DNA from: Clostridia bacterium
Lineage (GTDB): Bacteria > Bacillota > Clostridia > TANB77 > CAG-508
Length of the DNA: 64,000 nt
Direction of reading: 5' to 3'
Assembly: GCA_017510245.1 (NCBI GenBank)
Contig: JAFWNQ010000014.1
Coordinates: forward strand, 26,499 to 90,498
Shown: positions 1,161-55,351 of the stretch, one piece after another
Numbering within the stretch: the stretch's first letter is position 1
How the letters are laid out: every line of letters starts with the position of its first letter
Notes under the pieces: generated by a model
Told to the model about the DNA's origin: nothing
What the model saw: only the letters and a program-made list of their open reading frames with translations
Database searches by the model: none
Program-made: the position numbers and the translations under genes

Positions 1161-1277
1161 AACCGAATCCCTCCTTATAATAAATTTACCTATCTATTAT
1201 AACATAATTTTCCTCATTTGTGAAGTTTTCTGAATTCTTTTTAGACTTTTGATGGACGTCCCTAAGTTTACCCAAGT

Positions 1278-2564
1278 TTATTCTGGCAAATAATTTATCT
1301 GAGCATTGCAATTATAATTCCAATAGTTATTTACCCATTCTTCAGGTAATTCACTTTGTTTATAGTTAATATTAATTGTTTGTGAAGATGTCCAAGCATT
1401 AAATATACAATATCCCATTCTCTTTACACTATTTGGTATTGTTATACTTTGCAAATTAGAGCAACTACCGAATGCGAAATCTCCTATCATTTTTATACTA
1501 TTTGGTATATTAATTGATACTAAATCTGTATAACCACCAAAAGCATGATCCCCTATGCTAATAGTATTTTCTCTCAGAGTAATACTTGTATTAGATGACA
1601 TTGTTCCCTTATAACAACATAATGCATTTCCAAAATATATTAGCCCATCAGATAGTGAATTAAAAAATGGTGTATAATCAAAAGCATATCCTCCAACATA
1701 TTCTACATTATCAGAAATACTTACAGAGTTTAAACTACTGCAATTACTAAATGCATTTGAAGCAATGTATTTAACACTATTAGGAATAACTATTTGTTGC
1801 AAAGAACTAATACTAGAAAAAGCACCACTTCCAAGGTTAATTACAGTATCAGGTATTATTAAATTAGTAATTTGATTTGTAATATACGAACTTTGCCAAC
1901 CACCAGAATCTATATTGTTCATAGTATAGATTCTATTATTCTCTTTTATAAATGCTGGAATCCCATATTTAAATGTTCCTCCTTCTATTTCTCTAGACTT
2001 ATAAGCTGAGAAATCACTATATGGATCATCATATCCATATATTTTACATGTATCTTCACCTGTTATTTCATATCTCCACTTGTCAGTAGTAAATATATTT
2101 CCATTCATGTCTATCATACAGTCGCCAGATTCTTTTGATATTTTTGTCCTTAATGCTTCTAAGCTTATTGTTCCTCCCGAAAAAGTTCCATCATATATAT
2201 CTGATACTTTTATTTCATATTTTCCTCCTTTTGTTGTTAATATCTTTTCTAATACTGATTCCTCGCCATTATCTGATAATGTTCCCTGTGTACTATATTC
2301 TGGTGATGTTAATATTTCTATTAATTCCTCTTCTGATAGCTCTCCATGATTGTCTACTTGCTTTTCCATTATATCCATTTTAGCAATATCAATTATTTGT
2401 GCTTTTTCCGATACTTCTGATGAGTCTCTTGCTCTTTCCATTAAACCACCATTGCTTAGTACCAAGTTTATTGTTACACCTGCTAAAATTAATAGAACTA
2501 TTATTGTTACTACTAGTGCTATTAATGTTATTCCTTTTTCTTTACTAATTCTTTTGTTTCTCAT
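1278..2564 (-). CDS. Prepilin-like (Glu5-less) N-terminus fused to BspA-type leucine-rich repeat surface protein
   Basis: N-terminus MRNKRISKEKG-ITLIALVVTIIVLLILAG. C-terminal repeats IPNSVKYIASNAFSNCSSLNSVSI / IPNSIKMIGDFAFGSCSNLQSITIPNSV are typical of LRR_5 (BspA) repeats. Confidence 0.7.
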   Translation of the reverse strand: MRNKRISKEKGITLIALVVTIIVLLILAGVTINLVLSNGGLMERARDSSEVSEKAQIIDIAKMDIMEKQVDNHGELSEEELIEILTSPEYSTQGTLSDNGEESVLEKILTTKGGKYEIKVSDIYDGTFSGGTISLEALRTKISKESGDCMIDMNGNIFTTDKWRYEITGEDTCKIYGYDDPYSDFSAYKSREIEGGTFKYGIPAFIKENNRIYTMNNIDSGGWQSSYITNQITNLIIPDTVINLGSGAFSSISSLQQIVIPNSVKYIASNAFSNCSSLNSVSISDNVEYVGGYAFDYTPFFNSLSDGLIYFGNALCCYKGTMSSNTSITLRENTISIGDHAFGGYTDLVSINIPNSIKMIGDFAFGSCSNLQSITIPNSVKRMGYCIFNAWTSSQTININYKQSELPEEWVNNYWNYNCNAQINYLPE

Positions 2565-2648
2565 ATTTTTTCCTTTCCCTTACAGTCATAAAGTCTCACT
2601 TGTAAAATAATTTACATATTTTAATAATAATATATCTTTGTTTATTTT

Positions 2649-3617
2649 TCAATAAGTTTCTGCAGTATTTCTCATAAAATCCACAAACTTTTCTATTCCT
2701 TCTTTAAAACTTGTTTTTGGCTCATATCCTATAAGCTCCTTTGCTTTTGAAATATCTGCATAAGTTCTATCTACGTCTCCTGGCTGCATAGGAAGTTTTT
2801 CTATTATTGGCTCTTTATTTAAAGCTTCTCCTATTGTACTTATCATTTCATTTAGTTTTATTGGATAAGAATTTCCCAAATTTAATATTTCATAAACATT
2901 ATCATTCTTTTCCAAATAATCTGCTGATTTTATAATTCCATCAACTATATCATCTATGTATGTATAATCTCTAGAAGTTGTACCATCTCCAAACATAGGA
3001 ATTTTTTTGTTTTCCATCATAAGCTTTGTAAATTTTGTAATAGCTAAATCTGGTCTTTGTTTTGGGCCATAAACAGTAAAGAATCTTAGCATCATAATGT
3101 CAATATTGTATAAGCTATAGTATGTATGTGCCATTACTTCATTTGATTTCTTTGTAGCAGCATATGGACTTATAGCATAATCAACAATCATATTTTCGTT
3201 AAAAGGAACTGTTCTACAATTTCCATACACACTACTAGAAGAGGCCATTATTACTTTTTTTATTTTATGTTTTCTTATTTCTTCAAGTAGGTTTTGTGTT
3301 CCCATGCAATTTACATCTTGGTACAATATAGGATTTTCAATTGATGGTCTTACTCCTGCCATTGCTGCTAGATGAATTACAAAATCTATATTGTTATCAG
3401 AAAAAATCTTGTTAAGCGCTTCTTTATCTCTAATGTCTGCCTCATAAAGAAAAAAGTTTATATTATTGCATAAGTTTTCTATATTCTTTCTTTTAATTTT
3501 GGGATCATAAAAATTATTAAAATTATCAACTACAATAACTCTATTGTTCTTTGTTAGTTCTTCACATAAAGAAGAACCTATAAAACCTGCACCACCTGTT
3601 ACTAAAAAAGTTTTCAT
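2649..3617 (-). CDS. NAD-dependent sugar-nucleotide epimerase/dehydratase (UDP-glucuronate 4-epimerase-like)
   Basis: Rossmann motif TGGAGFIGS, SDR catalytic YAATK, and position next to ugd. Confidence 0.8.
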   Translation of the reverse strand: MKTFLVTGGAGFIGSSLCEELTKNNRVIVVDNFNNFYDPKIKRKNIENLCNNINFFLYEADIRDKEALNKIFSDNNIDFVIHLAAMAGVRPSIENPILYQDVNCMGTQNLLEEIRKHKIKKVIMASSSSVYGNCRTVPFNENMIVDYAISPYAATKKSNEVMAHTYYSLYNIDIMMLRFFTVYGPKQRPDLAITKFTKLMMENKKIPMFGDGTTSRDYTYIDDIVDGIIKSADYLEKNDNVYEILNLGNSYPIKLNEMISTIGEALNKEPIIEKLPMQPGDVDRTYADISKAKELIGYEPKTSFKEGIEKFVDFMRNTAETY

Positions 3618-3668: not shown

Positions 3669-4964
3669 CTACCTTCCTATCGAATGATAATCTATTCCAT
3701 TTTCTTTCATTTCATTAATATCATAAATATTTCTTCCATCAAAAACTGAAGGATTGCTCATTAGTTCTTTATATTGTTCTGGTTTTATGTCCTTTATTTC
3801 ATTCCATTCAGTAAATATAAAACAAGCATCTGCATCTTTTAATGCTTCTGTAGGATTCTTAGCATACATTATCTTTTCATCATCATATTTTTCTTTAAAA
3901 TTGTTTGAAGCTATTGGATCATAAGTATAAACATTAGCTCCTTGATTAACTAAATACTTTATATTATCAATGGATGGTGCTTCTCTTAAATCATCTGTTT
4001 CAGGTTTAAAAGCTAAACCTAAAACTGCAATTTTCTTTCCCTCAAAAGATTTAAAACACTTCTTAGCCTTTTTTATAAGCCTTTTTCTTTGTTCTTCATT
4101 TACTTCAATAGTTGCTTTTACAGTTTTTAGTTCATACCCATTTTGTTCTGCTAAATAATTAAGTGCTTTAGTATCTTTTGGAAAGCAACTTCCTCCATAT
4201 CCAATTCCTGCATTTAGAAATTTAGCTCCAATTCTATCATCATAGCTCATTCCCTTTGCAACTTCCTCTATATCTGCTCCAACTATTTTACATAGATTTG
4301 CTATTTCATTCATATAGGATATTTTTAGTGCTAAGAAACTATTACATGCATATTTCACCATTTCAGCACTTCTTCTATTCATTGAAACAATTGGTAAATT
4401 AAAAGGTTTATATATTTCATTAAGTTTCTTCTCTGCTGATTTACTTTCTATTCCAATAATAACTCTTTTAGCATGAAGCATATCATGAACAGCATTTCCT
4501 TGTGCTAAAAACTCTGGATTACTTGCCACCTCAACCTTTACATTGTTTTTCAAATTATCTTTTATTATTTTTTCAACTCTTTCATTCGTTCCAACTGGAA
4601 CTGTAGATTTTACAACCACTAAGCAGTCGTTCTCTATGTTTTCAGCAATTTGCTTTGATACAATTTCTACATACTCCAGATTAGCTGACCCATCAGGATT
4701 TTCTGGTGTTCCAACACCAATAAAAATCACTTCAGCATTTTTGTAAGTATTAGCATAATCTGTTGTATATCTTATTCTTCCTTTTTCTGCATTTTTTTGC
4801 ATAAGTTCTTGCAAGTCTTTTTCGTAAATTGGGCTAATTCCTTTTTGCATCAAGCTTATTCTTGCTTCATTAACATCTATACAAGTTACATTATGTCCTA
4901 CATCAGCAAAGCAGACTCCTGCAACTAATCCTACATATCCTGTTCCAGTTACAACAATATCCAT
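3669..4964 (-). CDS. ugd: UDP-glucose 6-dehydrogenase
   Basis: MDIVVTGTGYVGLVAG NAD-binding start, GGSCFPKD active site. I place the start at the internal ATG 4962-4964, which follows AAAGGAGGAAGA. The ORF-track start at 5024 is probably a 5' extension. Confidence 0.9.
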   Translation of the reverse strand: MDIVVTGTGYVGLVAGVCFADVGHNVTCIDVNEARISLMQKGISPIYEKDLQELMQKNAEKGRIRYTTDYANTYKNAEVIFIGVGTPENPDGSANLEYVEIVSKQIAENIENDCLVVVKSTVPVGTNERVEKIIKDNLKNNVKVEVASNPEFLAQGNAVHDMLHAKRVIIGIESKSAEKKLNEIYKPFNLPIVSMNRRSAEMVKYACNSFLALKISYMNEIANLCKIVGADIEEVAKGMSYDDRIGAKFLNAGIGYGGSCFPKDTKALNYLAEQNGYELKTVKATIEVNEEQRKRLIKKAKKCFKSFEGKKIAVLGLAFKPETDDLREAPSIDNIKYLVNQGANVYTYDPIASNNFKEKYDDEKIMYAKNPTEALKDADACFIFTEWNEIKDIKPEQYKELMSNPSVFDGRNIYDINEMKENGIDYHSIGR

Positions 4965-5121
4965 TCTTCCTCCTTTGCTGTTGCCAAAATTCTCCGTCAC
5001 TATTTGCATCATTCTTAATTGCATTTTCTAATTAATCTTTATTATTTCACATTTTAGCATAAACAAATCTGTTTTTCAACGTCTAAATAAAAACATAGAA
5101 AGAACTATATTTCCAACATAT

Positions 5122-17271: not shown

Positions 17272-17336
17272 AGAAAAAAGTATATCAAAAAATGCTTTAT
17301 TAATCAATATTAAAATAATTATAAAAGCAACGCAAA

Positions 17337-17358
17337 GGAGCCAGCTCTTGCTGGCTCC
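17337..17358 (-). terminator. Terminator of the 65-aa islet gene
   Basis: GGAGCCAGC-TCTT-GCTGGCTCC perfect stem, followed on the minus strand by TTTGCGTTGCTTTT. Confidence 0.7.
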
Positions 17359-17389
17359 TCCGCATAAGATCTGTCCCGGGGTAATTGAA

Positions 17390-17587
17390 TCACTTGTCCG
17401 GAATAATTGAATCAAATCCGGTCTCTGTCACCCTACGTCCACTCTCGTCTGTTAGTTCATAGCCTCTCCTTGACCACTCGGGAGCAATTCCGGTAATTGT
17501 TACCTTTGTTCCCTTCTTAATCGTGTAACTCAAGCATTCAAGGTCATAAGCTGCTACTCCTGTTGTTCCAATCGGCAGAATCTTCAT
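17390..17587 (-). CDS. Hypothetical 65-aa protein in a GC-richer single-gene islet
   Basis: Strong RBS (TAGGAGGAGAA-ATG), its own promoter and terminator, and composition clearly GC-richer than the flanks. No family recognised. Confidence 0.6.
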   Translation of the reverse strand: MKILPIGTTGVAAYDLECLSYTIKKGTKVTITGIAPEWSRRGYELTDESGRRVTETGFDSIIPDK

Positions 17588-17642
17588 TTCTCCTCCTAGC
17601 GTAGTTACGCTAACTAAAACCTATACCTTTACGAACATATAT

Positions 17643-17671
17643 ATTATACTATGTTTACATAAATTAGTCAA
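17643..17671 (-). promoter_or_regulatory. Sigma-A-type promoter of the 65-aa islet gene
   Basis: Minus strand reads TTGACT-17 nt-TATAAT (-35 at 17666-17671, -10 at 17643-17648). The leader contains the hairpin TAGCGTA-AC-TACGCTA next to the RBS. Confidence 0.6.
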
Positions 17672-17735: not shown

Positions 17736-19355
17736 TTAAACATCTATATAGAACATTATACGTGTACAAAAGTAATCCATATATAAATAGCTGTCTTCTG
17801 TATCACCTGGATTGTAGCTTCCACTATCTTTAGCAGAGCAAGTATATCTAGCACTTCCACCTCTAAGTACACGTCTACTTGATGACCAACTTGAGCCGGT
17901 TCCATCTATAGCTGCTGCCATAGTCCATTCTCTTACGTTCGCTTCTAAGTCAAATATATTATTTATTACATCTGTTTCGTTATTAGGTCCTACCCACATT
18001 CCAGTATTTAGTATTGTATAACTATGATTTCCATTAGTTGAAGCTGTTACTTTTGATGAATCATTAGGATTTGTAAGTCCAAAGTTCAACATTGCATCCC
18101 ATTGACTTCCCCATATCATGCCTGATGTAATTCCATTTTTATTATATGCCTTCGCTTTGCTGTATGCATTCCACCAATTAAGATTTCTAGCTGGAGTTAC
18201 ACATAGTCTTGAAATATCCGATGAAGAGTCACCCATTTCATACCTTGCTACATAAAATCCTCCATATTCCTTTATACTTGCTATTAGATTATTGTATTCT
18301 TGTTGTAATATTTCTTCACTAATTCCAGTAGTATTCTCACTCCAACTGTCCGAATATGTTAAATAAGCTGGCTCTTTACGACCAAGTGCCGGATCATAGC
18401 ATTCTTCTCCAGTCTGATTACTATTCCAAGTATATAATACTCCTCTATAATTTGTTCCAGATGATATTTCTGCCATTTTCTTGTTTGTTTTTCCTACTGT
18501 TAAATTTGTTTTATCGACTGGAATCCATACAAATTCATTTCCATTACTATAGTTTTTTCCATCTATTTGTTCTACACTATCTGTAATTACGAGTCCTTTA
18601 GTTACATTTCCTACATTTTCGCTTGTTCCATAAGCAAATCCTTCTGGAATCCAAACATCATATCCATCTTTTGATAGTTTATAGTTACTATTCTGAATTG
18701 TCGAATACTCTTCCGCTTTTGAAGCAGGATATTCATTCCAAATTATTTCTCCATATTCTCCATTTAAATTTGTTGCAGTTATTCTATACAAACCAGGTTT
18801 TGTAATTGCAAATTCTGCATTTTGTCCATCTATTGTTTCATCATTACAAGTATATTGTAGTTCATCAATAGATAAATCGTTGTAATTTCCTCCTTCTGCA
18901 GAAACTCTTAATAAAATTGCCCTTGATTCTGTCTCTTGTGTAGAAATAGCCAAGCTTAAATTATTCTCAACGTTTTTTATTCCCTCATATTTTATTTCTC
19001 CATTTGTATTAATAGTATATTGTCTTTTCGACTCGTTAAAAGTAACTTTAATTGGATTTCCTCTAGCACTTGCTCCTTGATTTGTTAATTCAGTATTTAA
19101 ATCTCCTGCTGTTACTTCTATCAAACCTCCATTACTTACTTTTTTTGATAATGCAGAATTATATGCTAACGCAATAATCTCTTTTTCTTTACCTATTTCA
19201 GTTTGTTCTTTGGCAGCTTTTGATTTCTGAATCAATCCATTACTTCCCATTGCCAAATTAATTGTTATTCCAGCTAATATTAAAAGCACTATGATTGTTA
19301 CTACCAATGCTATTAAAGTTATTCCATTTTCTTTAAAATTATTTCTTTTGTTCAT
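17736..19355 (-). CDS. Prepilin-like (Glu5-less) N-terminus fused to an FGE-sulfatase / C-type-lectin-fold-like domain
   Basis: MNKRNNFKENG-ITLIALVVTIIVLLILAG. The C-terminal half has GGFYVARYEM, WGSQWDAM, RRVLRGGS, reminiscent of SUMF1/FGE-type domains. Confidence 0.65.
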   Translation of the reverse strand: MNKRNNFKENGITLIALVVTIIVLLILAGITINLAMGSNGLIQKSKAAKEQTEIGKEKEIIALAYNSALSKKVSNGGLIEVTAGDLNTELTNQGASARGNPIKVTFNESKRQYTINTNGEIKYEGIKNVENNLSLAISTQETESRAILLRVSAEGGNYNDLSIDELQYTCNDETIDGQNAEFAITKPGLYRITATNLNGEYGEIIWNEYPASKAEEYSTIQNSNYKLSKDGYDVWIPEGFAYGTSENVGNVTKGLVITDSVEQIDGKNYSNGNEFVWIPVDKTNLTVGKTNKKMAEISSGTNYRGVLYTWNSNQTGEECYDPALGRKEPAYLTYSDSWSENTTGISEEILQQEYNNLIASIKEYGGFYVARYEMGDSSSDISRLCVTPARNLNWWNAYSKAKAYNKNGITSGMIWGSQWDAMLNFGLTNPNDSSKVTASTNGNHSYTILNTGMWVGPNNETDVINNIFDLEANVREWTMAAAIDGTGSSWSSSRRVLRGGSARYTCSAKDSGSYNPGDTEDSYLYMDYFCTRIMFYIDV

Positions 19356-19542: not shown

Positions 19543-20433
19543 TTGTCATTTGGTGTCATTGGGTGTCATTGGGGACGTTGTTGTTTTGACATTATTTACT
19601 GTTTTGAATTATATATTTTTCTTATGCTTTCTCTATTAACTTCTAATAATTCAGCAATTTTTCTTAATGAAATATTATTTTCATCTTTTAGAGTTACTAT
19701 TATTTTTTTCATTATGTCTTTATTCATCTTTATCTCTTTAATTGTTACTTTATTATCTACTAAAAACTTAAATATAATGTTTTTACATTCTCTGTTTTTA
19801 TCCTCATCAATGTCCATAAATAAGTATTTTTCACTATAATCTTTATCCAATTCTTTCGTTATTTTATAGTTTGAGTATGGATATTCCCAAGGATGTTTGC
19901 ACATTCCTGCTTTTACAGGATTATAATGAATATATTTTATACAATTATATAAATATTTTTCATTATAAATTCCTTCCGACCTATATCGGTTTCTAAATAC
20001 ATAACCTACTCTACTATATTTTTTGTTGTAATACTTTGCATATGCAGTATTTAAACGTTGCATAAATTTAGCTAAATTTTCCACTTTTGATGTTTCTAAT
20101 AGTATGTGAGCGTGATTGTTCATTATACAATAAGCTATTATTTTTATCTCACATTCTTGATTTAAACTATACATTTTTACTAAATAAAATTCTATATCTT
20201 CTTCACTTTCAAAAATATAAGTTTTTTCTATTCCTTGTGTTATCACATGGAAAAAACACGTCTTTATATAATTTCTTGGATATCTTGGCATATATTATAA
20301 CTCCTTAAATAAAAAAATGACAAAGTTTATTAGAACATTTTATCACACTGTTCTTATAAATTTTGTCAAAATTTGTATTTACCTTAATTATTATTATATC
20401 AATTTATCTACGTCCCCATTGACACCATTGACA
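19543..20433 (-). mobile_element. IS200/RAYT-like unit: Y1 transposase gene bracketed by inverted decamer arrays
   Basis: Left side has 3 tandem TGTCATT(T/G)GG units then GGGGACGT (19544-19578). Right side has ACGTCCCC then CCATTGACA twice (20410-20433). The inner 8-mers are perfect inverted repeats. Confidence 0.6.
19596..20291 (-). CDS. Y1 (HUH) transposase, IS200/REP-associated tyrosine transposase-like, with C-terminal HTH
   Basis: HUH motif NNHAHILL, catalytic Tyr region YIHYNPVKAG, C-terminal LRKIAELLEVNRESIRKI helix-turn-helix. Confidence 0.75.
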   Translation of the reverse strand: MPRYPRNYIKTCFFHVITQGIEKTYIFESEEDIEFYLVKMYSLNQECEIKIIAYCIMNNHAHILLETSKVENLAKFMQRLNTAYAKYYNKKYSRVGYVFRNRYRSEGIYNEKYLYNCIKYIHYNPVKAGMCKHPWEYPYSNYKITKELDKDYSEKYLFMDIDEDKNRECKNIIFKFLVDNKVTIKEIKMNKDIMKKIIVTLKDENNISLRKIAELLEVNRESIRKIYNSKQ

Positions 20434-32968: not shown

Positions 32969-33154
32969 TTATTCCTCTACAATTTTAAATGCATCATTAT
33001 TATTAACATCCTTTGTTTTTTCCAATGTATATCCATAGTTTAGAACAACAACAGGTCTAAATCCCATATCATTACGACTATAATAAGTTATATCTAACCC
33101 TCCGCCATAATGATATTCATTTCCTACATGTCCGCCAATTATCCACAACTGCAA
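32969..33154 (-). CDS. C-terminal segment (+1 frame) of prepilin-like gene 33117-34304
   Basis: ...GGHVGNEYHYGGGLDITYYSRNDMGFRPVVVL carries the family C-terminal FRPVV motif. It is reached from the main frame by skipping the C of CGG at 33134. Confidence 0.6.
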   Translation of the reverse strand: MQLWIIGGHVGNEYHYGGGLDITYYSRNDMGFRPVVVLNYGYTLEKTKDVNNNDAFKIVEE

Positions 33155-34304
33155 CCATATTACTATATTTAGCAGGTGAAGCCAGCCAATAGGCCATTGC
33201 CTGCGTTTTCAAGTGTGCTACAGAATATGGTTTATGTAGATTGCTTATTATTTGACAATAATTATCATATGTTTTTCCCCCATCTCTACTTATAATATAT
33301 CCTCCCGTACTATCAATCTGTCCCATACAATAATTTGTTTGCGTTCTTTCAGAAACTTTGTTATATGCTTTAAATAAAAGTTCTATAGTTGGTCCTCCTA
33401 TTGCATATTCAGCATAACCTTGTGTACTATTCGAAAATTTACCCCAAGTAATAGTATCTAACATATAAGCTATAGCTTTTATATTATCTGCTGTACTTGT
33501 ATTACCATTTAAAAAAGAATAGTATTTACTATTTAGTTTTTGTAGTTTGGTTTCAACATCTGTTGATCCAACATATTGTGTCATTACTCCATCATTTAGG
33601 TTATTACCAAATTTCGCTTTGTATTCCGAACCATCTATAGGGATTGGCCTTGCTCCAACTACTTCTACTCCCTCTTTTTTCACTGTTGGAAGTTTTGTAT
33701 TTTTTATATATTCTTTTGAAATTAAATAAATCCTTTCCTCTGTCTCGCCATCTAGGGCTCCCGCATAAAATAATTGCCACCCTATATCCTGCAACTCTTC
33801 TGGTAAAGTTTCTGCATAATTAATTACGTCTAGTCCAAAAAATATATTCGCTCCATCATACAATTCCGAAATTTCCATTGCGTTTGGATTAGAAACTCCA
33901 TTCTTTTTTTCTAAAGTTCCATCTTGAAATATGTAATACTCATTTTCTGTATCTATAAATTTAACTTTTAATCTGTCACTTCCAGTTACTTTTGTCTTAT
34001 TATCTCCCACAGACATATCTAACTCTTCTTGCAAGTCAGGTTTATTCACTTTATTCCCTAACCCTTTTACTTTTGCAGACATAAATGCTAATTGTATTTG
34101 TTCTTTTTCATCACCTATAATCTTTTCCTCTTTTGATATTTTAGTTCTTTCTATTAATCCATTACTTCCAATTGCCATATTTATAGTTATTCCTGCTAGT
34201 ATTAGCAGCACTATTATAGTTACAACTAGAGCTACTAACGTTATTCCATTTTCTAATATGTTCGTTCTTTTGTTTATCATTTTTTTCTTCCTTTCGGACA
34301 TCAC
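33117..34304 (-). CDS. Prepilin-like (Glu5-less) surface protein, main frame; likely start at 34280
   Basis: MINKRTNILENG-ITLVALVVTIIVLLILAG with RBS AAAGGAAG before ATG 34278-34280. YWLASP motif near the end. The frame ends 5 codons after in-frame CGG 33132-33134. Confidence 0.7.
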   Translation of the reverse strand: MMSERKKKMINKRTNILENGITLVALVVTIIVLLILAGITINMAIGSNGLIERTKISKEEKIIGDEKEQIQLAFMSAKVKGLGNKVNKPDLQEELDMSVGDNKTKVTGSDRLKVKFIDTENEYYIFQDGTLEKKNGVSNPNAMEISELYDGANIFFGLDVINYAETLPEELQDIGWQLFYAGALDGETEERIYLISKEYIKNTKLPTVKKEGVEVVGARPIPIDGSEYKAKFGNNLNDGVMTQYVGSTDVETKLQKLNSKYYSFLNGNTSTADNIKAIAYMLDTITWGKFSNSTQGYAEYAIGGPTIELLFKAYNKVSERTQTNYCMGQIDSTGGYIISRDGGKTYDNYCQIISNLHKPYSVAHLKTQAMAYWLASPAKYSNMVAVVDNWRTCRK

Positions 34305-34586
34305 ATTTTGATAGTTGAAGCTGCAGTTAGCAAGACTTTAAGCTTCTCATCTTACTTATCCTTATTATTTTAATATATAGATTTATTTTAGTATATTTTT
34401 ATTATTTTTTCAATATGTAAAAGTATGTGTGTGTACATATATATACACATCCTTAGAGATTTTCAAGTTTTTTTACTTTTTCATGACATTTTTTCATAGC
34501 CTTTTTTATATTTTTCTGAAAGCTTTTTTCCTATTTTATATTTCCAAAATTCTCTGTCCCCAATGGCTGCTAATAACCAAAAAGGC

Positions 34587-34616
34587 CCCCTCTGGTTGTG
34601 CAAGCAACCAAAGGGG
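34587..34616 (-). terminator. Terminator of the 105-aa islet gene
   Basis: CCCCTCTGGTTG-TGCAAG-CAACCAAAGGGG (1 mismatch), followed on the minus strand by CCTTTTTGG. Confidence 0.6.
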
Positions 34617-34644
34617 AAATTGCCTAGCTTTCCAGCAGCTCTTA

Positions 34645-34962
34645 CTACTGCTTGAGCTTGAAAGCTATGCTAAAAAGAGATCCGTCTTGCCCAGCATACA
34701 CAAGTTCAGAGTTCTTCAAGTACACATATGGATGCTTTTGCATCACTCCCTGAACAAATATCTTGCTGCACATTAGGTCATTGTAAACTTCAAAAGCATC
34801 AATTGCTCTAACAGCCTCAATGACAAACACAAGACCGTTTTCTTTGCACTCATTTATGACTTCCATAGAAACGTCCTCGGAGGCTTCTCTATAGTAAAAA
34901 TCTTGTAGCCACTTAGGACTAATTTCGACATTATGTGCCATAGTTATCATCCCAATCTTCAA
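34645..34962 (-). CDS. Hypothetical ~100-aa protein in a GC-richer single-gene islet
   Basis: ORF with composition clearly GC-richer than the flanks. The start is ambiguous (TTG 34962 or ATG giving MITMAHN / MAHNVEI). No family recognised. Confidence 0.5.
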   Translation of the reverse strand: MKIGMITMAHNVEISPKWLQDFYYREASEDVSMEVINECKENGLVFVIEAVRAIDAFEVYNDLMCSKIFVQGVMQKHPYVYLKNSELVYAGQDGSLFSIAFKLKQ

Positions 34963-35024
34963 TTGACTGATGGAATTTCTAGTCTTGCACCTAGAAATAT
35001 TTAACTTATATCTATTTTACCACA

Positions 35025-35059
35025 AAAACACTAGTTTTTCAATAAAACTAGTGTTTTTC
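35025..35059. terminator. Bidirectional terminator after prepilin-like gene 35130-36432
   Basis: Perfect 15-bp stem AAAAACACTAGTTTT / AAAACTAGTGTTTTT with a 5-nt loop. Confidence 0.75.
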
Positions 35060-35129: not shown

Positions 35130-35330
35130 CTATTTTATTGCAACTTCTCCTGTTTCATCATTAATTTCTAGCCTAGCTGCTGGTATAGATACTACGACGC
35201 GAAAAGCATTGCTAACTGTTTTACCGTGTTCCATAAGAGCGACACATTTCTGCTCCATCAATATATCCAGAATTACAACAAAACAAATTATATTTTGCAT
35301 AACTTGATGTTTCACCCTTAGATCCCGCAT
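35130..35330 (-). CDS. C-terminal segment (+1 frame) of prepilin-like gene 35221-36432
   Basis: Only the last ~31 codons (GKTVSNAFRVVVSIPAARLEINDETGEVAIK) look genuine. They are reached by skipping the C of CGG at 35226. Confidence 0.55.
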   Translation of the reverse strand: MRDLRVKHQVMQNIICFVVILDILMEQKCVALMEHGKTVSNAFRVVVSIPAARLEINDETGEVAIK

Positions 35331-36432
35331 ATATACATCTAGATGCTATCCAATAATCATCTCCATTAGCATTGAATAATTCGTTTGAAATTGGACTGTT
35401 TCCGAATTGACCGAGTTTCTCTTTTTGGAAATTAACACCTTTATCTTCTGCGGTTGGATTATAGTAACTAAAATAAGTATAATTTACAGTAAGTTTTCTG
35501 GCCGGATTTGATCCATCTTCTAATACTCTTCCAATTCCTCTGTCTGTTGTTATTATAGTATTTGGTACTTCATCATACAATTGATTATCTACTACTACTT
35601 CTTTATTTGAATCTGCAATATATATACCTGGATATCTCTTATTCATTGGAGTAAATACTTTTTTCCCAAGGTCCTTTCCTTCATTCCACACATATTCTCC
35701 ACTATTGTCGTATGGAGCATTTCTTACAAATGTATCTTCCCAGTTATATGTCCTTTCATTCAATAATTCTGCTGCATGTTTTAAATCTGTAAGCTTAAAA
35801 GCATGTATTCGATTTGATGTTACACCAATCTCAAGATTTACAAATAGTTCTGTACTTATTTTATTTAAGTAATATAAGCAATTATCATACCCTGATGATT
35901 CCTTAAATTGTACTTTCTTTTTTGTTGGCCCACTTACTATATTTATTCCATTTTGATCTGCACTTAAAACATACCATTTTATTCTCTCTTCTTCTGTTCC
36001 TAATAAATCTGATTGTGTAAAAGTTTGGTCTGCAAGTCCACCATTATATTTTCCTTCAACTGTTACTTTTACTGGATTTCCTTCTTGATCTCTTAAATCT
36101 GTTACATTATAATTAATCTCTTGAAGTGCTTTTCCATTATCTTTAATTCTCTCCGTAACTTTTTCTATTTGCTGTTGAGATAGTTTAATTGTAGTATCAT
36201 CGATAAAATTTCCAGCTATTTCAATTTCTTTGATTTCATTTTCCCCTGAATTATGATATACTTCACTTGACTTTTTTGTTTTTTGAATTAACCCATTATT
36301 ACTAATTATCATATTAATTGATACTCCAGCTAATATTAATAATACTAATATTGTGACTACAAGTGAAATTAAAGTTATTCCTGTTTCATTTATTATACAC
36401 ATTTTTATTTTTTTCATTAAACACCTCTTCAT
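35221..36432 (-). CDS. Prepilin-like (Glu5-less) surface protein, main frame; likely start at 36417
   Basis: MKKIKMCIINETG-ITLISLVVTILVLLILAG with RBS AGAGGTG. YWIASR motif. The last sense codon is in-frame CGG (35224-35226), immediately followed by TAA. Confidence 0.7.
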   Translation of the reverse strand: MKRCLMKKIKMCIINETGITLISLVVTILVLLILAGVSINMIISNNGLIQKTKKSSEVYHNSGENEIKEIEIAGNFIDDTTIKLSQQQIEKVTERIKDNGKALQEINYNVTDLRDQEGNPVKVTVEGKYNGGLADQTFTQSDLLGTEEERIKWYVLSADQNGINIVSGPTKKKVQFKESSGYDNCLYYLNKISTELFVNLEIGVTSNRIHAFKLTDLKHAAELLNERTYNWEDTFVRNAPYDNSGEYVWNEGKDLGKKVFTPMNKRYPGIYIADSNKEVVVDNQLYDEVPNTIITTDRGIGRVLEDGSNPARKLTVNYTYFSYYNPTAEDKGVNFQKEKLGQFGNSPISNELFNANGDDYWIASRCIYAGSKGETSSYAKYNLFCCNSGYIDGAEMCRSYGTR

Positions 36433-38012: not shown

Positions 38013-38050
38013 ATTACTACCTCTTTATTTCATTATCTCTATATCTAAAA

Positions 38051-38166
38051 TGTGCAAAAAGGGACGGGGGATTTCTGCACATTTGTGCAATTAGGGACAC
38101 TCTTTCTAAAGCAGGGGTGTCCCTTTCTGCATATTTGTGCAGAAATCCCCCGTCCCTTTTTGCACA
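38051..38166. repeat. 116-nt nested palindromic element (31-bp perfect outer inverted repeat plus inner stem)
   Basis: TGTGCAAAAAGGGACGGGGGATTTCTGCACA (38051-38081) is the exact reverse complement of 38136-38166. Inner stem AGGGACAC/GTGTCCCT. GC-richer than its surroundings. A partial extra copy CCTTTTTTTGCACA follows at 38167-38180. Confidence 0.8.
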
Positions 38167-38181
38167 CCTTTTTTTGCACAT

Positions 38182-38212
38182 AAAACTCTGCGGAGTAGAT
38201 CCACAGAGTTTT
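38182..38212 (-). terminator. Terminator of rpmE
   Basis: AAAACTCTG-C-GGA...TCC-A-CAGAGTTTT hairpin directly after the rpmE stop. Confidence 0.7.
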
Positions 38213-38220
38213 TAATAATC

Positions 38221-38421
38221 TTATTTAATTCCGTATTTTTCTTTAAACTTAGCTGCCTTTCCACCTTTTGTCTCTTTTCTTAAATTACCTGTCCAAAATG
38301 GATGACATTTTGAGCATACATCAACTTTCATATCTGCTTTAGTTGAATTTGTTTTTATTACATTTCCACAAGCACAAGTTATTGTAGCTTCTGTATAATC
38401 TGGGTGTATTCCTTCTTTCAT
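38221..38421 (-). CDS. rpmE: 50S ribosomal protein L31 (Zn-ribbon type)
   Basis: MKEGIHPDY...CACGN...CSKCHPFWTG. Start at ATG 38419-38421 after AAGAGGTGA. The ORF-track GVG start at 38430 is rejected. Confidence 0.93.
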   Translation of the reverse strand: MKEGIHPDYTEATITCACGNVIKTNSTKADMKVDVCSKCHPFWTGNLRKETKGGKAAKFKEKYGIK

Positions 38422-38450
38422 CACTTTCACCTCTTTCTAAAATTTCGTAA

Positions 38451-38633
38451 TTATTCTGCTTTTTGAGCTATAACTTCATTTCCATCATAATATCCACAGC
38501 TTGGGCATACTCTATGTTGCATTGTAAGCTTATGGCAATGAGGACATTCTACAAGGTTTTTGTTTTCCAATTTCCAAGTTGATCTTTTAGTATGTGTTCT
38601 TTGTTTTGACCATCTTCTTTTTGGTTGTGCCAT
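38451..38633 (-). CDS. rpmF: 50S ribosomal protein L32
   Basis: MAQPKRRWSKQRTHTKRS...CPHCH...CPSCGYY. Confidence 0.93.
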   Translation of the reverse strand: MAQPKRRWSKQRTHTKRSTWKLENKNLVECPHCHKLTMQHRVCPSCGYYDGNEVIAQKAE

Positions 38634-43617: not shown

Positions 43618-44133
43618 CTAATCAAAATTTTGCATATTAATTTTTGTATAATTTCCAGGATATCTGAATATAATTTGTCCTGAAGCATTCTCGAATCCAC
43701 CAACATAATAAATAGTCCTAGATTCTCCGTTTATTATGTATACATCATCATCTGTTGCATCCAAGTCACCATAATTTCTCTTACCAAAATTAAGTGCTTC
43801 CATTTTAGACTCTACTTTACCAAACAAGTCACTACTTAACTGATTTGCATTTATTATATAATAAGTATCTCCATCATTTTGATTATCACAAAAACTAGTA
43901 TCTCCATTATACACATCACCTATTGTTGATATGCTCTTATCAGATGGATAAACTTGAGAAACTGTTTCTGATAAAATAGTAAAGTCATCTTTAAACTTTG
44001 TAATTCTATTTAATGCTATTATATCATTTATTTTTAATGCTGTTGGAATACTAATTAGTCCTAAAACTATTACAGTTATAACTAAGACAATTAGTGTAAT
44101 ACCTTTTTCATTTTTAATCTTTTGCATAATCAT
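43618..44133 (-). CDS. Small prepilin-like (Glu5-less) protein
   Basis: MIMQKIKNEKG-ITLIVLVITVIVLGLISIP followed by a ~130-aa soluble domain. Confidence 0.6.
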   Translation of the reverse strand: MIMQKIKNEKGITLIVLVITVIVLGLISIPTALKINDIIALNRITKFKDDFTILSETVSQVYPSDKSISTIGDVYNGDTSFCDNQNDGDTYYIINANQLSSDLFGKVESKMEALNFGKRNYGDLDATDDDVYIINGESRTIYYVGGFENASGQIIFRYPGNYTKINMQNFD

Positions 44134-54639: not shown

Positions 54640-54814
54640 TATTTTCTTATAATACTGCTCCTATTCCTACTACTGTTAGATATTTTAACATAATAGATTT
54701 TTTTTTGTCAATGGTAATACATCAGTTGCTTTGGTATATTTATCTCATTTTATAATAAATACTTATTATTCTTTACAAATTTATTCTTATCTTTATAATT
54801 AATAAAAAAAGAAA

Positions 54815-54847
54815 TATCTTTCTCCCTCTTGCGGAAGGAGAAAGATA
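54815..54847 (-). terminator. Terminator of the DUF1874 gene
   Basis: Perfect 11-bp stem TATCTTTCTCC / GGAGAAAGATA, followed on the minus strand by TTTCTTTTTTT. Confidence 0.75.
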
Positions 54848-54888
54848 CTTCTTTTTTCGATAGAAATTGTTACTATGCCCAGTCCATC

Positions 54889-55218
54889 TTACTGCAGGTT
54901 TTCGCACTCCTCCATCAGAGTAACCTCAAAGAACACGAGGCTAGCTCCATTTGGAAGCTCAGTTGCCCCCTCCGGAAGTCTGGGACCCCTGTACTGTGCA
55001 ACGTACAATACGTCGTCAGTAGTTAAGGTCAAGGTTGTCCGGTTTACCTCAACCTTTCGGTCAAGATAGCTGGAAAGCAACGAAGCAGTGTCAGGGTGTC
55101 CAATTACCGACACGGCATCAATCGGCACTTCTGCTGCAGGCACCCTCATCACTCTAATGAGCTTGAGATCCTCGACCTCAAGCATGTTCAGTGAGAAGGC
55201 ATTCGCGAGGTAATTCAT
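54889..55218 (-). CDS. DUF1874 family protein (AcrIII-1 / Crn2 cyclic-oligoadenylate ring nuclease family)
   Basis: MNYLANAFSLNML, SVIGHPDTA, VNR, VAQYRGPRLPEG and FFEV match my recollection of the signatures of SIRV1 gp29, STIV B116 and YddF. RBS AAAGGAGAGG. Markedly GC-richer than the flanks. Confidence 0.75.
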   Translation of the reverse strand: MNYLANAFSLNMLEVEDLKLIRVMRVPAAEVPIDAVSVIGHPDTASLLSSYLDRKVEVNRTTLTLTTDDVLYVAQYRGPRLPEGATELPNGASLVFFEVTLMEECENLQ

Positions 55219-55292
55219 TACCTCTCCTTTCTTGCTGAGCCATCCTTAAATTAAGAATTGGTCTTACCAGCGATCGGATATATGATAGAATT

Positions 55293-55339
55293 ATTATACC
55301 ACTATTTACATAATGTGTCAATTATGTAAATAGTGGTAT
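55293..55339 (-). promoter_or_regulatory. Consensus promoter of the DUF1874 gene embedded in a perfect 19-bp inverted repeat
   Basis: Minus strand reads TTGACA (55316-55321)-17 nt-TATAAT (55293-55298). The palindrome ATACCACTATTTACATAAT-GTGTCA-ATTATGTAAATAGTGGTAT spans 55296-55339. Confidence 0.6.
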
Positions 55340-55351
55340 ATGCTATTTGTT

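What the first reader, a model, noticed from the sequence alone, without database searches (positions are those of the whole stretch)
54815..55340. Orphan DUF1874 (AcrIII-1/Crn2 ring-nuclease family) gene as a GC-rich, self-contained islet between cotJ and ltaS
The 109-aa protein shows the family signatures as I recall them: N-terminal LANAFS(L/I)NML, IGH with the catalytic His, NR, a VxQ...RLPEG segment with the conserved Glu, and FFEV. The DUF1874 family has been shown to be cyclic tetra-adenylate ring nucleases, used by viruses as anti-type-III-CRISPR proteins (AcrIII-1) and by some hosts as Crn2. A homologue, YddF, is carried by ICEBs1. Here the gene stands alone, is markedly GC-richer than the AT-rich flanks, and has a consensus TTGACA-17-TATAAT promoter. 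That promoter is buried in a perfect 19-bp inverted repeat (55296-55339), which could serve as an operator or as the cotJ terminator. It also has a strong terminator of its own. No cas genes, CARF effectors, phage genes or ICE genes are in the window. Its conserved Arg (VNR) is encoded by CGG (55039-55041), the codon that native genes in this window never use in frame. If CGG is poorly decoded, this gene would be silenced or frameshifted to N-G-Q-P-stop.
Basis: partly seen in the sequence, partly recalled or inferred. Interest (0 to 1): 0.65.

Follow-up and report, generated by a model that had tools for sequence, protein, structure and literature searches.

The report
Stand-alone cA4 ring-nuclease gene cassette
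A gut Clostridia chromosome carries a small, foreign-looking, self-contained gene for an AcrIII-1/DUF1874-type enzyme that most likely destroys the cyclic tetra-adenylate alarm signal of type III CRISPR; it is a credible new member of a well-known family, and its one unusual feature is a portable promoter shared with related cassettes.

Summary
A 109-aa ORF (54889-55218, minus strand) passes the PF08960 gathering score. Its alignment-backed model (pLDDT 94.3) matches only AcrIII-1/DUF1874 structures. The catalytic His and 8 of 9 cA4-contacting side chains are kept. The gene is the strongest compositional outlier in 64 kb (GC3 0.57 against 0.12-0.28). It has a 12/12 promoter inside a perfect 20-bp palindrome and its own terminator. 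About 84 kb of surveyed chromosome holds no cas, CARF, phage or ICE genes. The islet is present in every assembly of this species and absent beside cotJC in 80 related species. Variants 95-99% identical differ mostly at synonymous sites, and one lies on a metatranscriptome contig, so the gene looks functional. The CGG-silencing idea is not supported: CGG is about as rare as mutational bias predicts. New here: the promoter spacer element TTATGTAAA recurs in homologous cassettes only 52-60% identical, and in a second GC-rich mini-cassette in this window (65-aa orphan, 17390-17587). Verdict: a new member of a known kind, probably an orphan trans-acting cA4 ring nuclease. Whether it serves the host or is a mobile-element relic cannot be decided from this sequence.

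The parts
54889..55218 (-). DUF1874 / AcrIII-1-fold ORF, 109 aa (stop codon included)
   Evidence: PF08960 scores 32.4 bits. AF2 model pLDDT 94.3. Foldseek top hits are 6scf, 2x4i, 2j85, 2j6b and Tsac_2833.
55096..55098 (-). Codon of His41, the equivalent of the catalytic His47 of SIRV1 gp29
   Evidence: The phmmer alignment to 2x4i/6scf and the residue mapping. His is present in 68 of 70 homologs. The role of H47 comes from 10.1101/778746.
55039..55041 (-). CGG codon of Arg60, the equivalent of the cA4-contacting R66 of gp29
   Evidence: Arg is present in 69 of 70 homologs.
55219..55286 (-). Predicted 5'UTR of about 68 nt, with RBS AAAGGAGAGG at 55221-55230. A 7-bp hairpin (55207-55224) encloses part of the RBS and the start codon.
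   Evidence: The stretch from CTGGTAAG onward is shared with L174 and with the X20 variant, whose homology stops at 55271. The fold is not significant (z = -2.1) and is not conserved.
55293..55321 (-). Sigma-A-type promoter TTGACA-17-TATAAT (12 of 12, TG-extended -10). Its spacer holds the element TTATGTAAA (55305-55313).
   Evidence: The spacer element is conserved in L174, L191 and L192.
55295..55340 (.). Perfect 20-bp inverted repeat with a 6-nt loop. The -35 hexamer lies mostly in the loop, running one base into the promoter-side arm. That arm carries the spacer and most of the -10, and the other arm is its mirror copy. It begins 11 nt after the cotJC stop codon.
   Evidence: RNA hairpin -24.8 kcal/mol, z = -8.3. 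It lies upstream of the predicted transcription start, so it is absent from the DUF1874 mRNA and present only in cotJ read-through RNA (inference).
54798..54857 (-). Intrinsic terminator of the cassette: 24-nt arms, a 5-nt loop, an A-run before and a T-run after (a bidirectional shape)
   Evidence: z = -7.6.
54811..55290 (.). GC-rich core of the islet (150-nt windows with GC of at least 0.43, peak 0.52). The insert can span at most from the ltaS promoter (54682-54711) to the cotJC stop (55352).
   Evidence: GC excess over flanks is 0.21, the top of 94 homolog loci.
17320..17671 (-). Second cassette of the same design, related by promoter class only. Promoter TTGACTaatTTATGTAAAcatagTATAAT (17671-17643), RBS AGGAGGAG, a 65-aa orphan ORF (17390-17587; GC 0.45, GC3 0.41), and a terminator hairpin (17337-17358) followed by a T-run.
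   Evidence: No family found.

Best explanation
The locus is a horizontally acquired single-gene cassette of about 0.55 kb. It consists of a promoter, a 5'UTR, an ORF and a terminator, and it sits between the cotJABC operon and an LtaS-like sulfatase gene.

Its product is a DUF1874/AcrIII-1-fold protein. By homology it should form a homodimer, enclose one cyclic tetra-adenylate (cA4) molecule at the dimer interface, and cleave it to linear A2>P, with His41 acting as the general acid. N6, S9, N11, T44, R60, Q75 and R80 would hold the ligand.

The gene is transcribed from its own near-perfect sigma-A promoter, independently of its neighbours. The enzyme would therefore act in trans on any cA4 pool in the cell and switch off cA4-activated CARF/SAVED effectors. 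In effect it is a free-standing off-switch or anti-type-III factor.

What is shown: family, fold, active-site conservation, foreign composition, autonomous regulatory signals, purifying selection, and presence in every assembly of the species.

What is inferred: dimerisation, cA4 cleavage, the physiological target, and the role of the palindrome. The palindrome may be an operator for an unidentified regulator, a terminator or insulator for cotJ, or both.
For: Family and fold: PF08960 is above its gathering score. Sequence hits to 2x4i/6scf, 2j6b and 2j85. The AF2 model has pLDDT 94.3. The Foldseek PDB hits with E below 0.02 are exclusively AcrIII-1/DUF1874 and Csx1-Crn2 chains, with TM 0.65-0.76. 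The BFVD top hit is Tsac_2833 of phage THSA-485A (TM 0.86/0.91, rmsd 1.4 A), at 44% identity. That protein abolishes cA4-dependent but not cA6-dependent type III immunity (10.1101/778746).

Active site: H41, N6, S9, N11, T44, R60, Q75, R80 and E83 align with H47, N8, S11, N13, T50, R66, Q81, R85 and E88. Most are at least 90% conserved among 70 homologs.

Foreign origin: GC3 is 0.57 against 0.12-0.28. The GC excess of 0.21 is at the top of 94 homolog loci, whose mean is 0.07. DUF1874 is absent from 80 related species' cotJ loci.

Autonomy: a 12/12 promoter and a strong terminator.

Functionality: the islet DNA is 100% identical in 12 of the first 13 contigs (the 13th has one mismatch), and every assembly has the same 712-bp gap. 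Variants show 11 synonymous against 3 non-synonymous codon changes. A 343-nt metatranscriptome contig covers 54909-55250, and in that run no contig covers the flanking genes.
Against: No biochemical data exist for this protein. Position S49 of gp29 is Asp here, although Asp is the norm in this clade (58 of 70). The dimer was not modelled. No type III CRISPR, CARF or SAVED gene is visible in about 84 kb, so a substrate source in this host is unproven. For the archaeal virus homolog SIRV2 gp37, a preprint reports that the protein does not act as an anti-CRISPR in native infection and has another partner (10.1101/2023.01.10.523387). Family membership therefore does not fix the biological role. 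The RNA evidence is a single low-depth contig of a 95% variant, and it could be contaminating DNA.
Confidence: 0.7

Rival explanations
1. Domesticated host ring nuclease. The cassette has been retained because it tunes or resets a type III CRISPR system (or another cA4-using system) encoded elsewhere in this genome. It would work like Crn2, but unlinked and in trans.
For: The cassette is fixed in all sampled assemblies of the species, including strains about 1% diverged. Purifying selection acts on it. The AcrIII-1 authors proposed that Crn2 arose by cellular capture of the viral enzyme. The palindromic, operator-like promoter would allow tight control.
Against: No cas10, csm/cmr, CARF or SAVED gene lies within about 84 kb. 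Ring nucleases that serve type III systems are normally encoded in the locus, and Crn2 was found in only 7 of the loci surveyed in 10.1101/2024.09.24.614671. A consensus promoter suggests high expression, which would disable defence instead of tuning it.
Confidence: 0.25
2. Relic or 'moron' of a mobile element. The gene arrived as an anti-CRISPR on a phage, ICE or IS-associated element, and it is all that remains of that element. It persists because it is cheap, or because it makes the host permissive to related elements.
For: Its closest homologs lie in mobile-element contexts: next to a large serine recombinase (L175), RadC (L178) and an IS rve transposase (L186). 192 relatives were found in viral contigs. 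Strong constitutive promoters are typical of anti-defence genes. The foreign GC3 points to recent arrival.
Against: No integrase, att-like repeats, target-site duplication or other element remnants flank it. The nearest viral homolog is only about 53% identical. The motif-bearing promoter is not enriched in IMG/VR: 77 matches against 59 for the control.
Confidence: 0.3
3. The protein has a function other than cA4 cleavage, for example binding a host protein or a different nucleotide, and the ring-nuclease fold has been co-opted.
For: SIRV2 gp37 binds and inhibits a host lysine methyltransferase and gives no anti-CRISPR phenotype in native infection. No cA4 source is visible in this host.
Against: The full set of catalytic and ligand-contact residues is conserved here and across the clade. 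Both bacterial or phage homologs that were tested (YddF and Tsac_2833) act on cA4.
Confidence: 0.1
4. The gene is effectively silent or frameshifted because its CGG codon (R60) cannot be decoded in this AT-rich host.
For: CGG is very rare. Only 2 credible in-frame uses were found in about 18,000 codons, both within the last five codons of their genes.
Against: The expected number from mutational bias alone is about 2.5 (16 CGA codons times an AGG/AGA ratio of 0.157), so there is no specific avoidance. The gene is under purifying selection along its whole length, including downstream of the codon. No change at the CGG codon is listed for the 95% variants, although that list was truncated. The tRNA set of the genome is unknown; only tRNA-Leu lies in the window.
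Confidence: 0.04
5. The gene is an ancestral core gene of the clade, and its high GC simply reflects the amino-acid composition of the family.
For: DUF1874 genes are on average 0.07 GC-richer than their flanks.
Against: GC3, which is nearly independent of amino-acid composition, is 0.57 against about 0.17. Ameliorated homologs in AT-rich genomes have GC3 of 0.12-0.27. None of 80 related species has the gene near cotJC.
Confidence: 0.03

Closest known systems
Tsac_2833, the DUF1874/AcrIII-1 protein of Thermoanaerobacterium phage THSA-485A
   Same: It has the same fold (Foldseek TM 0.86/0.91, rmsd 1.4 A to its predicted structure). It is 44% identical over 91% of the protein and of similar size (102 aa). 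It is a Firmicutes-type homolog. It was shown to abolish cA4-dependent but not cA6-dependent type III immunity (10.1101/778746).
   Different: Tsac_2833 sits inside a phage genome among small same-strand genes. The window gene stands alone between housekeeping genes with its own promoter and terminator, and no phage genes are nearby.
SIRV1 gp29 (AcrIII-1; PDB 2x4i, and 6scf with cA4)
   Same: The catalytic His and 8 of 9 ligand-contact side chains are shared. The fold matches at TM about 0.7.
   Different: gp29 comes from an archaeal virus and is about 30% identical. The position equivalent to S49 is Asp here. The loops differ (rmsd 2.7-4 A).
YddF of ICEBs1 (Bacillus subtilis)
   Same: It is a bacterial chromosomal copy of the family and a proven fast cA4 ring nuclease.
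   Different: YddF is part of a recognisable integrative conjugative element. Here no element genes surround the gene.
Crn2 and the Csx1-Crn2 fusions (for example Marinitoga; PDB 8y7f/8y7g)
   Same: The DUF1874 domain is the same; Foldseek matches at TM 0.65-0.71. A homolog fused to a CARF-HEPN Csx1 is among the relatives found (P0080).
   Different: Crn2 is defined by its association with a type III CRISPR locus. The window gene is at least 9-54 kb (about 20-64 kb with the extensions) from any possible cas gene and is not fused to anything.
Anti-CRISPR promoters under Aca repressors, and the shared anti-defence promoter P_ADE of crenarchaeal viruses
   Same: A strong promoter overlapped by an inverted repeat, and one promoter type reused in front of different small accessory genes. 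P_ADE is described in 10.1101/2023.01.10.523387. The Aca comparison rests on my own knowledge.
   Different: No regulator gene lies next to the cassette. No binding protein is known. The motif is not enriched in viral contigs.

Membership tests
DUF1874 / PF08960 (STIV_B116-like; AcrIII-1 fold) | The profile HMM match is above the curated threshold. | tested here: met
   32.4 bits against a gathering score of 26, E = 1e-7, covering residues 3-84. PHROG 5063, E = 1.2e-14. 1,926 relatives at E of 1e-3 or better.
DUF1874 / PF08960 (STIV_B116-like; AcrIII-1 fold) | The three-dimensional fold matches that of solved family members. | tested here: met
   AF2 with a 70-sequence alignment gives pLDDT 94.3 and pTM 0.86. 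The top 12 PDB hits are all 6scf, 2x4i, 2j85 or 2j6b, with probability 1.0 and TM 0.66-0.76.
DUF1874 / PF08960 (STIV_B116-like; AcrIII-1 fold) | The catalytic histidine (H47 of SIRV1 gp29) is present. | tested here: met
   H41 lies in the IGH motif and aligns with H47; 6scf carries the H47A substitution at that column. His is present in 68 of 70 homologs.
DUF1874 / PF08960 (STIV_B116-like; AcrIII-1 fold) | The cA4-contacting side chains are present (N8, S11, N13, S49, T50, R66, Q81, R85; list). | tested here: met
   N6, S9, N11, T44, R60, Q75 and R80 are kept. S49 becomes D43, and Asp is the clade norm.
DUF1874 / PF08960 (STIV_B116-like; AcrIII-1 fold) | The protein forms a homodimer that encloses cA4 and has cA4-specific ring-nuclease activity. 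| not testable with these tools
   No multimer prediction was available and no biochemistry can be done here.
AcrIII-1 (anti-CRISPR in the strict sense) | The gene is encoded by a virus, plasmid or integrative element. | tested here: not met
   The flanks are cotJABC, pyruvate kinase, an LtaS-like sulfatase and an endonuclease. No integrase, phage or conjugation genes appear in about 84 kb. The only mobile-type gene is an IS200-like transposase 35 kb away.
AcrIII-1 (anti-CRISPR in the strict sense) | The protein inhibits type III CRISPR immunity during invasion. | not testable with these tools
   This needs an interference or infection assay.
[quoted passage not shown] | The gene lies within or next to a type III CRISPR-cas locus, or is fused to a CARF effector. 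| tested here: not met
   No cas, CARF or SAVED genes and no CRISPR array occur in the window or in about 10 kb beyond each end. The protein is a single domain of 109 aa.
[quoted passage not shown] | The host genome encodes a cA4-producing Cas10. | not testable with these tools
   Only one scaffold of the organism could be reached. The species is not among the GTDB representatives searched.
Csx16 (CRISPR-associated ring nuclease) | The best profile match is to Csx16, and the gene lies in a type III locus. | tested here: inconclusive
   The PADLOC Csx16 model matches weakly (27.1 bits, E = 1.3e-6). The Pfam, PDB and fold evidence all place the protein in DUF1874 proper. Csx16 is reported to be structurally related to Crn2 homologs.
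Integron cassette or MITE-like mobile unit (considered for the islet) | An attC-type recombination site, or terminal inverted repeats with a target-site duplication. | tested here: not met
   Only low-complexity AT-rich repeats flank the islet (D1 and I6). The 3' hairpin is an ordinary terminator. No integrase gene is present.

The most novel reading that the evidence does not exclude
The DUF1874 gene may be one cargo of a class of portable single-gene cassettes. Each would consist of a strong promoter with the spacer element TTATGTAAA, a short UTR, a small ORF and a terminator. Such cassettes would be implanted between housekeeping genes of AT-rich gut Clostridia and would carry unrelated cargo: the ring nuclease here and in L174, L191 and L192, a 65-aa orphan at 17390-17587, and a 119-aa orphan in L054. 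The shared near-palindromic element would be the operator of an unidentified regulator. That would make these cassettes a co-regulated accessory (perhaps anti-defence) regulon, a bacterial counterpart of Aca-controlled acr promoters or the archaeal-virus P_ADE.
Probability: 0.2. Interest if true: 0.6.

Novelty: new member of a known kind. Interest (0 to 1): 0.35.

Why it matters
Ring nucleases decide whether type III CRISPR signalling ends in recovery, dormancy or failure of immunity. A chromosomal, unlinked, apparently constitutive AcrIII-1-type enzyme in an uncultured gut Clostridia lineage raises a concrete question: is the host deliberately damping cA4 signalling, or is it carrying a leftover weapon from a mobile element that keeps it permissive to invaders? 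The answer affects how CRISPR type III activity should be predicted from metagenomic genomes. Loci would need to be scored together with unlinked ring nucleases. The conserved promoter element also offers a handle for finding further small accessory genes that gene callers miss; 9 of the 13 contigs first fetched had no gene call for this ORF. If the gene is only a relic, the finding is an ordinary example of the family's known promiscuous spread.

Tried and rejected
- The large homolog database was switched off, so the search for homologous proteins could not be run. I used the 50%-representative search instead.
- Single-sequence AF2 gave an unusable model with pLDDT 46.7. I replaced it with the alignment-backed model.
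- Search for an empty site, part 1: 80 related species found through CotJC have neither DUF1874 nor the LtaS-like gene downstream, so there is no synteny to compare.
- Search for an empty site, part 2: every contig of this species carries the islet. The apparent 'skips 701/727' joints in run X11 have sides of only 21-23 nt in a T-rich low-complexity stretch of very high depth, so I discarded them as artefacts.
- Search for a donor: the nearest viral relative is about 53% identical and the nearest metagenome relative 60%. No donor was identified.
- Promoter motif in viruses, first pattern: the 17-nt core gave 109 hits, none with promoter context.
- Promoter motif in viruses, full architecture: 77 hits against 59 for a shuffled-motif control, so there is no enrichment.
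- Rfam finds nothing in the islet, and only a tRNA in the whole window.
- The 5'UTR structure is not significant and not conserved.
- The divergent 77-aa ORF of L174, a possible regulator, has no family and no relative in the window or in the other loci.
- An integron or MITE origin is not supported: no attC site, terminal inverted repeats or target-site duplication.
- CGG as an unreadable codon is rejected on expectation and on selection grounds.
- A decayed remnant of the Cys-rich tail after the stop codon is only about 60% DNA identity over about 30 nt to L174, in a shifted frame. That is too weak to claim.
Full report
**1. The observation**

The 109-aa ORF is at 54889..55218 on the minus strand.

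- Pfam PF08960 (STIV_B116-like, formerly DUF1874) scores 32.4 bits against a gathering score of 26.
- The gene has GC 0.51 and GC3 0.57. The other real genes of the window have GC3 of 0.12-0.28.
- The 400-nt bin over the gene (GC 0.475) is the window's maximum. The next highest bin is 0.385.
- A 12/12 TTGACA-17-TATAAT promoter with a TG-extended -10 lies at 55321..55293.
- A 24-nt-arm hairpin with a T-run follows the gene at 54805-54857.
- Both hairpins are far more stable than shuffled sequence, with z = -8.3 and -7.6.

**2. What the protein is**

A sequence search of the PDB finds SIRV1 gp29 (2x4i, E = 1e-6; 6scf, the H47A-cA4 complex), AFV3-109 and STIV B116.

A representative search of 1.84 billion proteins finds 1,926 relatives at E of 1e-3 or better. 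The nearest single-domain representative is 62% identical.

With a 70-sequence alignment, AlphaFold2 gives a confident model with pLDDT 94.3 and pTM 0.86. The single-sequence model was useless.

Foldseek against the PDB returns only AcrIII-1/DUF1874 chains at the top (TM 0.66-0.76), followed by the Marinitoga Csx1-Crn2 fusion. Against predicted viral structures the best match is Tsac_2833 of Thermoanaerobacterium phage THSA-485A, with TM 0.86/0.91 and rmsd 1.4 A. Tsac_2833 is also the best annotated sequence relative, at 44% identity.

I mapped the residues that 10.1101/778746 names for gp29 through the alignment:

- H47 corresponds to H41.
- N8, S11 and N13 correspond to N6, S9 and N11.
- T50 corresponds to T44.
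- R66 corresponds to R60.
- Q81 corresponds to Q75.
- R85 corresponds to R80.
- E88 corresponds to E83.
- Only S49 differs. It is D43 here, and Asp is the norm in this clade (58 of 70).

Most of these positions are at least 90% conserved in the 70-sequence alignment.

**3. Context and origin**

Upstream in the direction of transcription are cotJA, cotJB and cotJC, and before them pyruvate kinase. Downstream are an LtaS-like sulfatase, a DNA/RNA non-specific endonuclease and a DUF3006 protein.

The rest of the window reads as housekeeping, sporulation, cell-envelope and pilin-like genes (translations, my own reading; formal scans). The one mobile-element-type gene is an IS200-like Y1 transposase at 19596-20291. 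There is no CRISPR-like array.

I extended the survey along the source scaffold. It adds the spoIIIA operon on one side and a two-component system, sortase, LemA and CtpB on the other, again with no cas, CARF or SAVED genes.

The exact protein, its neighbours and the 801-bp islet DNA occur in gut-metagenome contigs from several studies. The islet is 100% identical in 12 of the first 13 contigs fetched (the 13th has one mismatch), and every assembly has the same 712-bp gap between cotJC and the sulfatase gene. Nine of those 13 contigs had no gene call for this ORF, presumably because of its atypical composition.

A strain about 99.3% identical, with a gene-content difference elsewhere, exists, but its cotJ locus could not be retrieved. 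The species is not among the GTDB representatives. The 80 nearest species by CotJC (75-87% identity, uncultured gut Clostridia) have no DUF1874 within 6 kb of cotJC, but they also lack the sulfatase there. This excludes an ancient cotJ-DUF1874 linkage. It does not provide a true empty site.

To calibrate the compositional signal I measured 94 homolog loci. DUF1874 genes are on average 0.07 GC-richer than their flanks, which is an amino-acid effect. Ameliorated copies in AT-rich genomes have GC3 of 0.12-0.27. The window gene's excess of 0.21 and GC3 of 0.57 are at the extreme of that distribution. The foreign signature is therefore real, and the acquisition looks evolutionarily recent.

No donor was found. 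The nearest viral relative is about 53% identical and the nearest metagenome relative is 60%.

**4. Is the gene alive?**

Sequencing-run searches found 95-99% identical variants in bovine-gut and other metagenomes.

Relative to the window, the 95% variant (runs X16 and X17) differs in 14 codons. Eleven of those changes are synonymous, three are non-synonymous, and there are no stops. The 99% variant (X11) has three changes, all synonymous. Roughly three quarters of random substitutions would change the amino acid (general knowledge), so the protein is under purifying selection.

In a 68-Mb bovine-gut metatranscriptome, the only contig that lies on the 2.6-kb region is a 343-nt piece covering 54909-55250. 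That is inside the predicted transcript, and no contig covers the flanking genes. This is suggestive of expression, but it is one low-depth contig.

**5. The CGG idea**

A naive ORF set has five in-frame CGG codons outside the gene.

- Three are in codons 3-6 of ORFs that are probably over-extended at the N-terminus. One of them actually overlaps the end of the second cassette described in section 6.
- Two are real, and they lie within the last five codons of two pilin-like genes.

CGG is therefore extremely rare. However, with 16 CGA codons and an AGG/AGA ratio of 87/555, mutational bias alone predicts about 2.5 CGG codons. There is no evidence that CGG is specifically unreadable. Selection acts on the whole ORF, including the part downstream of the codon. 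The tRNA repertoire cannot be examined, because only tRNA-Leu lies in the window.

**6.

The predicted transcription start (about 55286) lies downstream of the palindrome. As RNA, therefore, the hairpin can exist only in cotJ read-through transcripts. It begins 11 nt after the cotJC stop codon, and no other terminator lies in between, although the tail that follows it is a poor U-tract. As DNA it covers the -35 hexamer (mostly in the loop), the spacer and most of the -10.

The closest metagenome homolog (L174, 60% identical) has a nearly identical promoter. It reads TTGACAttTTATGTAAATtGTGGTAcAAT, against TTGACAcATTATGTAAATaGTGGTAtAAT in the window. That is 25 of 29 positions, whereas the coding DNA is about 62% identical. 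L174 also has a second, divergent 12/12 promoter with the same element, aimed at a 77-aa ORF that belongs to no known family.

Two further homologous cassettes, with proteins about 52-53% identical to the window's, carry the element in their spacers. L191 has it in the same orientation, and L192 has it inverted as TTTACATAA.

Statistics on the 9-mer:

- It occurs at 6.6e-5 per position in 948 kb of related AT-rich DNA.
- It is present in 4 of 5 cassette promoters, whereas no permutation of the 9-mer reaches more than 2.
- It is present in 3 of 78 promoter-like sites of the window plus relatives, whereas none of 500 permutations reaches 3.
- Shared descent can explain the copies in the same orientation. 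It cannot explain the inverted ones.

One of those three promoter-like sites revealed a second cassette in this window:

- promoter TTGACTaatTTATGTAAAcatagTATAAT (17671-17643);
- RBS AGGAGGAG;
- a 65-aa ORF at 17390-17587, with GC 0.45 and GC3 0.41;
- a GC-rich terminator at 17337-17358.

This cassette is wedged between a pilin-like gene and a radical-SAM gene, and it is present in all 17 contigs of the species. The protein has no Pfam, PDB or phage relative; its only hit is a weak match to an unknown-function PHROG.

The third site, in relative L054, precedes a 119-aa orphan ORF.

Two sequencing-run details fit a modular picture. In run X20, a 97% variant keeps homology only up to 55271, within the 5'UTR, and then has a different upstream sequence. 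In runs X15 and X21, a 1,715-nt contig matches only the 40-nt promoter stretch 55284-55323 and continues into unrelated sequence.

Against a phage origin for this promoter type, the full architecture is not enriched in IMG/VR: 77 matches against 59 for a shuffled-motif control.

**7. Relatives' contexts**

DUF1874 is abundant in viral contigs: 192 confirmed relatives from a single peptide pattern, some on contigs longer than 200 kb.

In AT-rich metagenome contigs, the nearest homologs sit in arrays of small same-strand ORFs with a large serine recombinase (L175) or RadC (L178). One sits alone beside an IS rve transposase among housekeeping genes (L186). One sits alone with a perfect consensus promoter and its own terminator (L185; GC3 0.67).

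GC3 runs 0.67 (L185), 0.57 (window), 0.41 (L174), 0.34 (L191) and 0.27 (L192). That series is what progressive amelioration of one cassette family in AT-rich hosts would look like. This is an inference.

**8. Mechanism and rivals**

The best-supported reading is that the cassette makes a homodimeric, metal-independent phosphodiesterase that encloses cA4 and cuts it to A2>P, with His41 as the general acid. This rests on homology to gp29, to YddF and to Tsac_2833, which abolishes cA4-based but not cA6-based immunity. Because the gene is unlinked and has a consensus promoter, the enzyme would clear cA4 in trans.

I cannot tell which biological role holds: a domesticated regulator of a type III system elsewhere in the genome, or a relic anti-CRISPR that keeps the host permissive. 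The rest of the genome is out of reach.

A preprint on SIRV2 gp37 (10.1101/2023.01.10.523387) warns that family membership does not guarantee an anti-CRISPR role in the native setting.

**9. Comparison with what is known**

The literature already describes DUF1874 as very widely and horizontally distributed: in archaeal viruses, phages, prophages, plasmids and many bacterial phyla, sometimes in integrated elements (yddF), and in 49 species next to type III loci as Crn2. Crn2 is rare in CRISPR loci (7 loci), and AcrIII-1 is the most common ring nuclease in phage genomes.

The window protein meets every testable criterion of the fold family. It fails the context criteria of both named roles: AcrIII-1 requires a location on a mobile element, and Crn2 requires a location in a type III locus. 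It is best called an orphan DUF1874 ring-nuclease homolog. As a gene it is a new member of a known kind.

The conserved promoter element, and its reuse in front of an unrelated orphan ORF in the same genome, is the only part I could not find described. Its interpretation is tentative.

**10. Limits**

- The large homolog database was unavailable.
- Only one genome-collection scan and one metagenome-collection scan were allowed.
- No empty site, donor, regulator or complete host genome was obtained.
- Dimerisation and enzymatic activity are inferred, not tested.

Noticed in passing
window 17320-17671 (minus strand): A second self-contained mini-cassette. Its promoter has the same TTATGTAAA spacer element. 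It has a strong RBS, a 65-aa ORF (17390-17587; GC 0.45 and GC3 0.41 against flanks of about 0.28-0.34) and its own terminator. It lies between a pilin-like gene and a radical-SAM gene. No Pfam, PDB or phage relative was found. It is present in all 17 contigs of the species.
   Followed up: partly
window 34586-35042 (minus strand): A third small stand-alone ORF (34645-34962, 105 aa, GC3 0.43) between two pilin-like genes. It has its own promoter-like site (35042-35014) and a GC-rich terminator (34586-34617). It has no Pfam family and does not carry the TTATGTAAA element.
   Followed up: partly
window 38048-38212: A GC-rich compound inverted repeat (57-nt arms, 84% complementary, at 38051-38107 / 38110-38166, plus internal repeats). 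It lies between miaB and rpmE/rpmF (L31 at 38221-38430, L32 at 38451-38633). It could be a REP-like element, and an IS200-like (RayT-type?) Y1 transposase lies at 19596-20291.
   Followed up: partly
Homologs P0003, P0004, P0005, P0009, P0010, P0013, P0017, P0032, P0054, P0058; L174 810-893: A subclade of DUF1874 proteins (10 of the 70 aligned, including most of the nearest relatives) carries a C-terminal Cys-rich tail: CxxC, then 3-8 residues, then CxxC, often followed by W-x-HG. It looks like a zinc knuckle. The window protein lacks it. The DNA just after the window's stop codon shows only a weak, frame-shifted resemblance to the tail of L174.
   Followed up: partly
L174 58-5088: L174 has two DUF1874 paralogs flanking large mTERF-repeat proteins. 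The second paralog (4708-5088) has lost the catalytic His (AITDS in place of IGH). The first is transcribed divergently from a 77-aa ORF of no known family, through back-to-back consensus promoters that both carry the spacer element.
   Followed up: partly
Proteins P0001, P0002, P0008, P0011, P0080: The family includes tandem double-DUF1874 proteins (about 214-259 aa). In some, one copy lacks the His (IGF or VGF). It also includes a 524-aa fusion of a CARF-HEPN Csx1 to DUF1874.
   Followed up: partly
window 55207-55224: A 7-bp hairpin, GAGGTAA-TTCA-TTACCTC as written on the plus strand (loop UGAA in the mRNA), pairs part of the Shine-Dalgarno region with codons 2-4 and places the start codon in and next to the loop. 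It could damp translation. It is not conserved in L174.
   Followed up: partly
window 55271 (run X20); 55284-55323 (runs X15, X21): A 97% variant of the gene in another metagenome shares the 5'UTR only up to 55271 and then has a different upstream sequence. Separately, a 1,715-nt contig matches only the 40-nt promoter stretch and continues into unrelated, GC-richer sequence. Those contigs could not be retrieved.
   Followed up: partly
window 1270-2666 compared with L302: A strain 99.3% identical (a 123-kb contig from another sample) lacks the 428-aa prepilin/LRR_5 gene (1278-2564). This is strain-level gene-content variation in the surface-protein repertoire.
   Followed up: no
window 1278-2564, 17736-19355, 33117-34304, 35221-36432, 43618-44133: Five paralogous ORFs with prepilin-type N-termini (GITLIALVVTIIVLLILAG...) and divergent large C-terminal domains are scattered through the window. 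Two of them end with the window's only credible native CGG codons.
   Followed up: no
L005-L010, L012-L013 and others: Gene callers left the DUF1874 ORF uncalled in 9 of the first 13 contigs, although the DNA is identical. Compositionally foreign small genes like this one are under-annotated in metagenome assemblies.
   Followed up: yes
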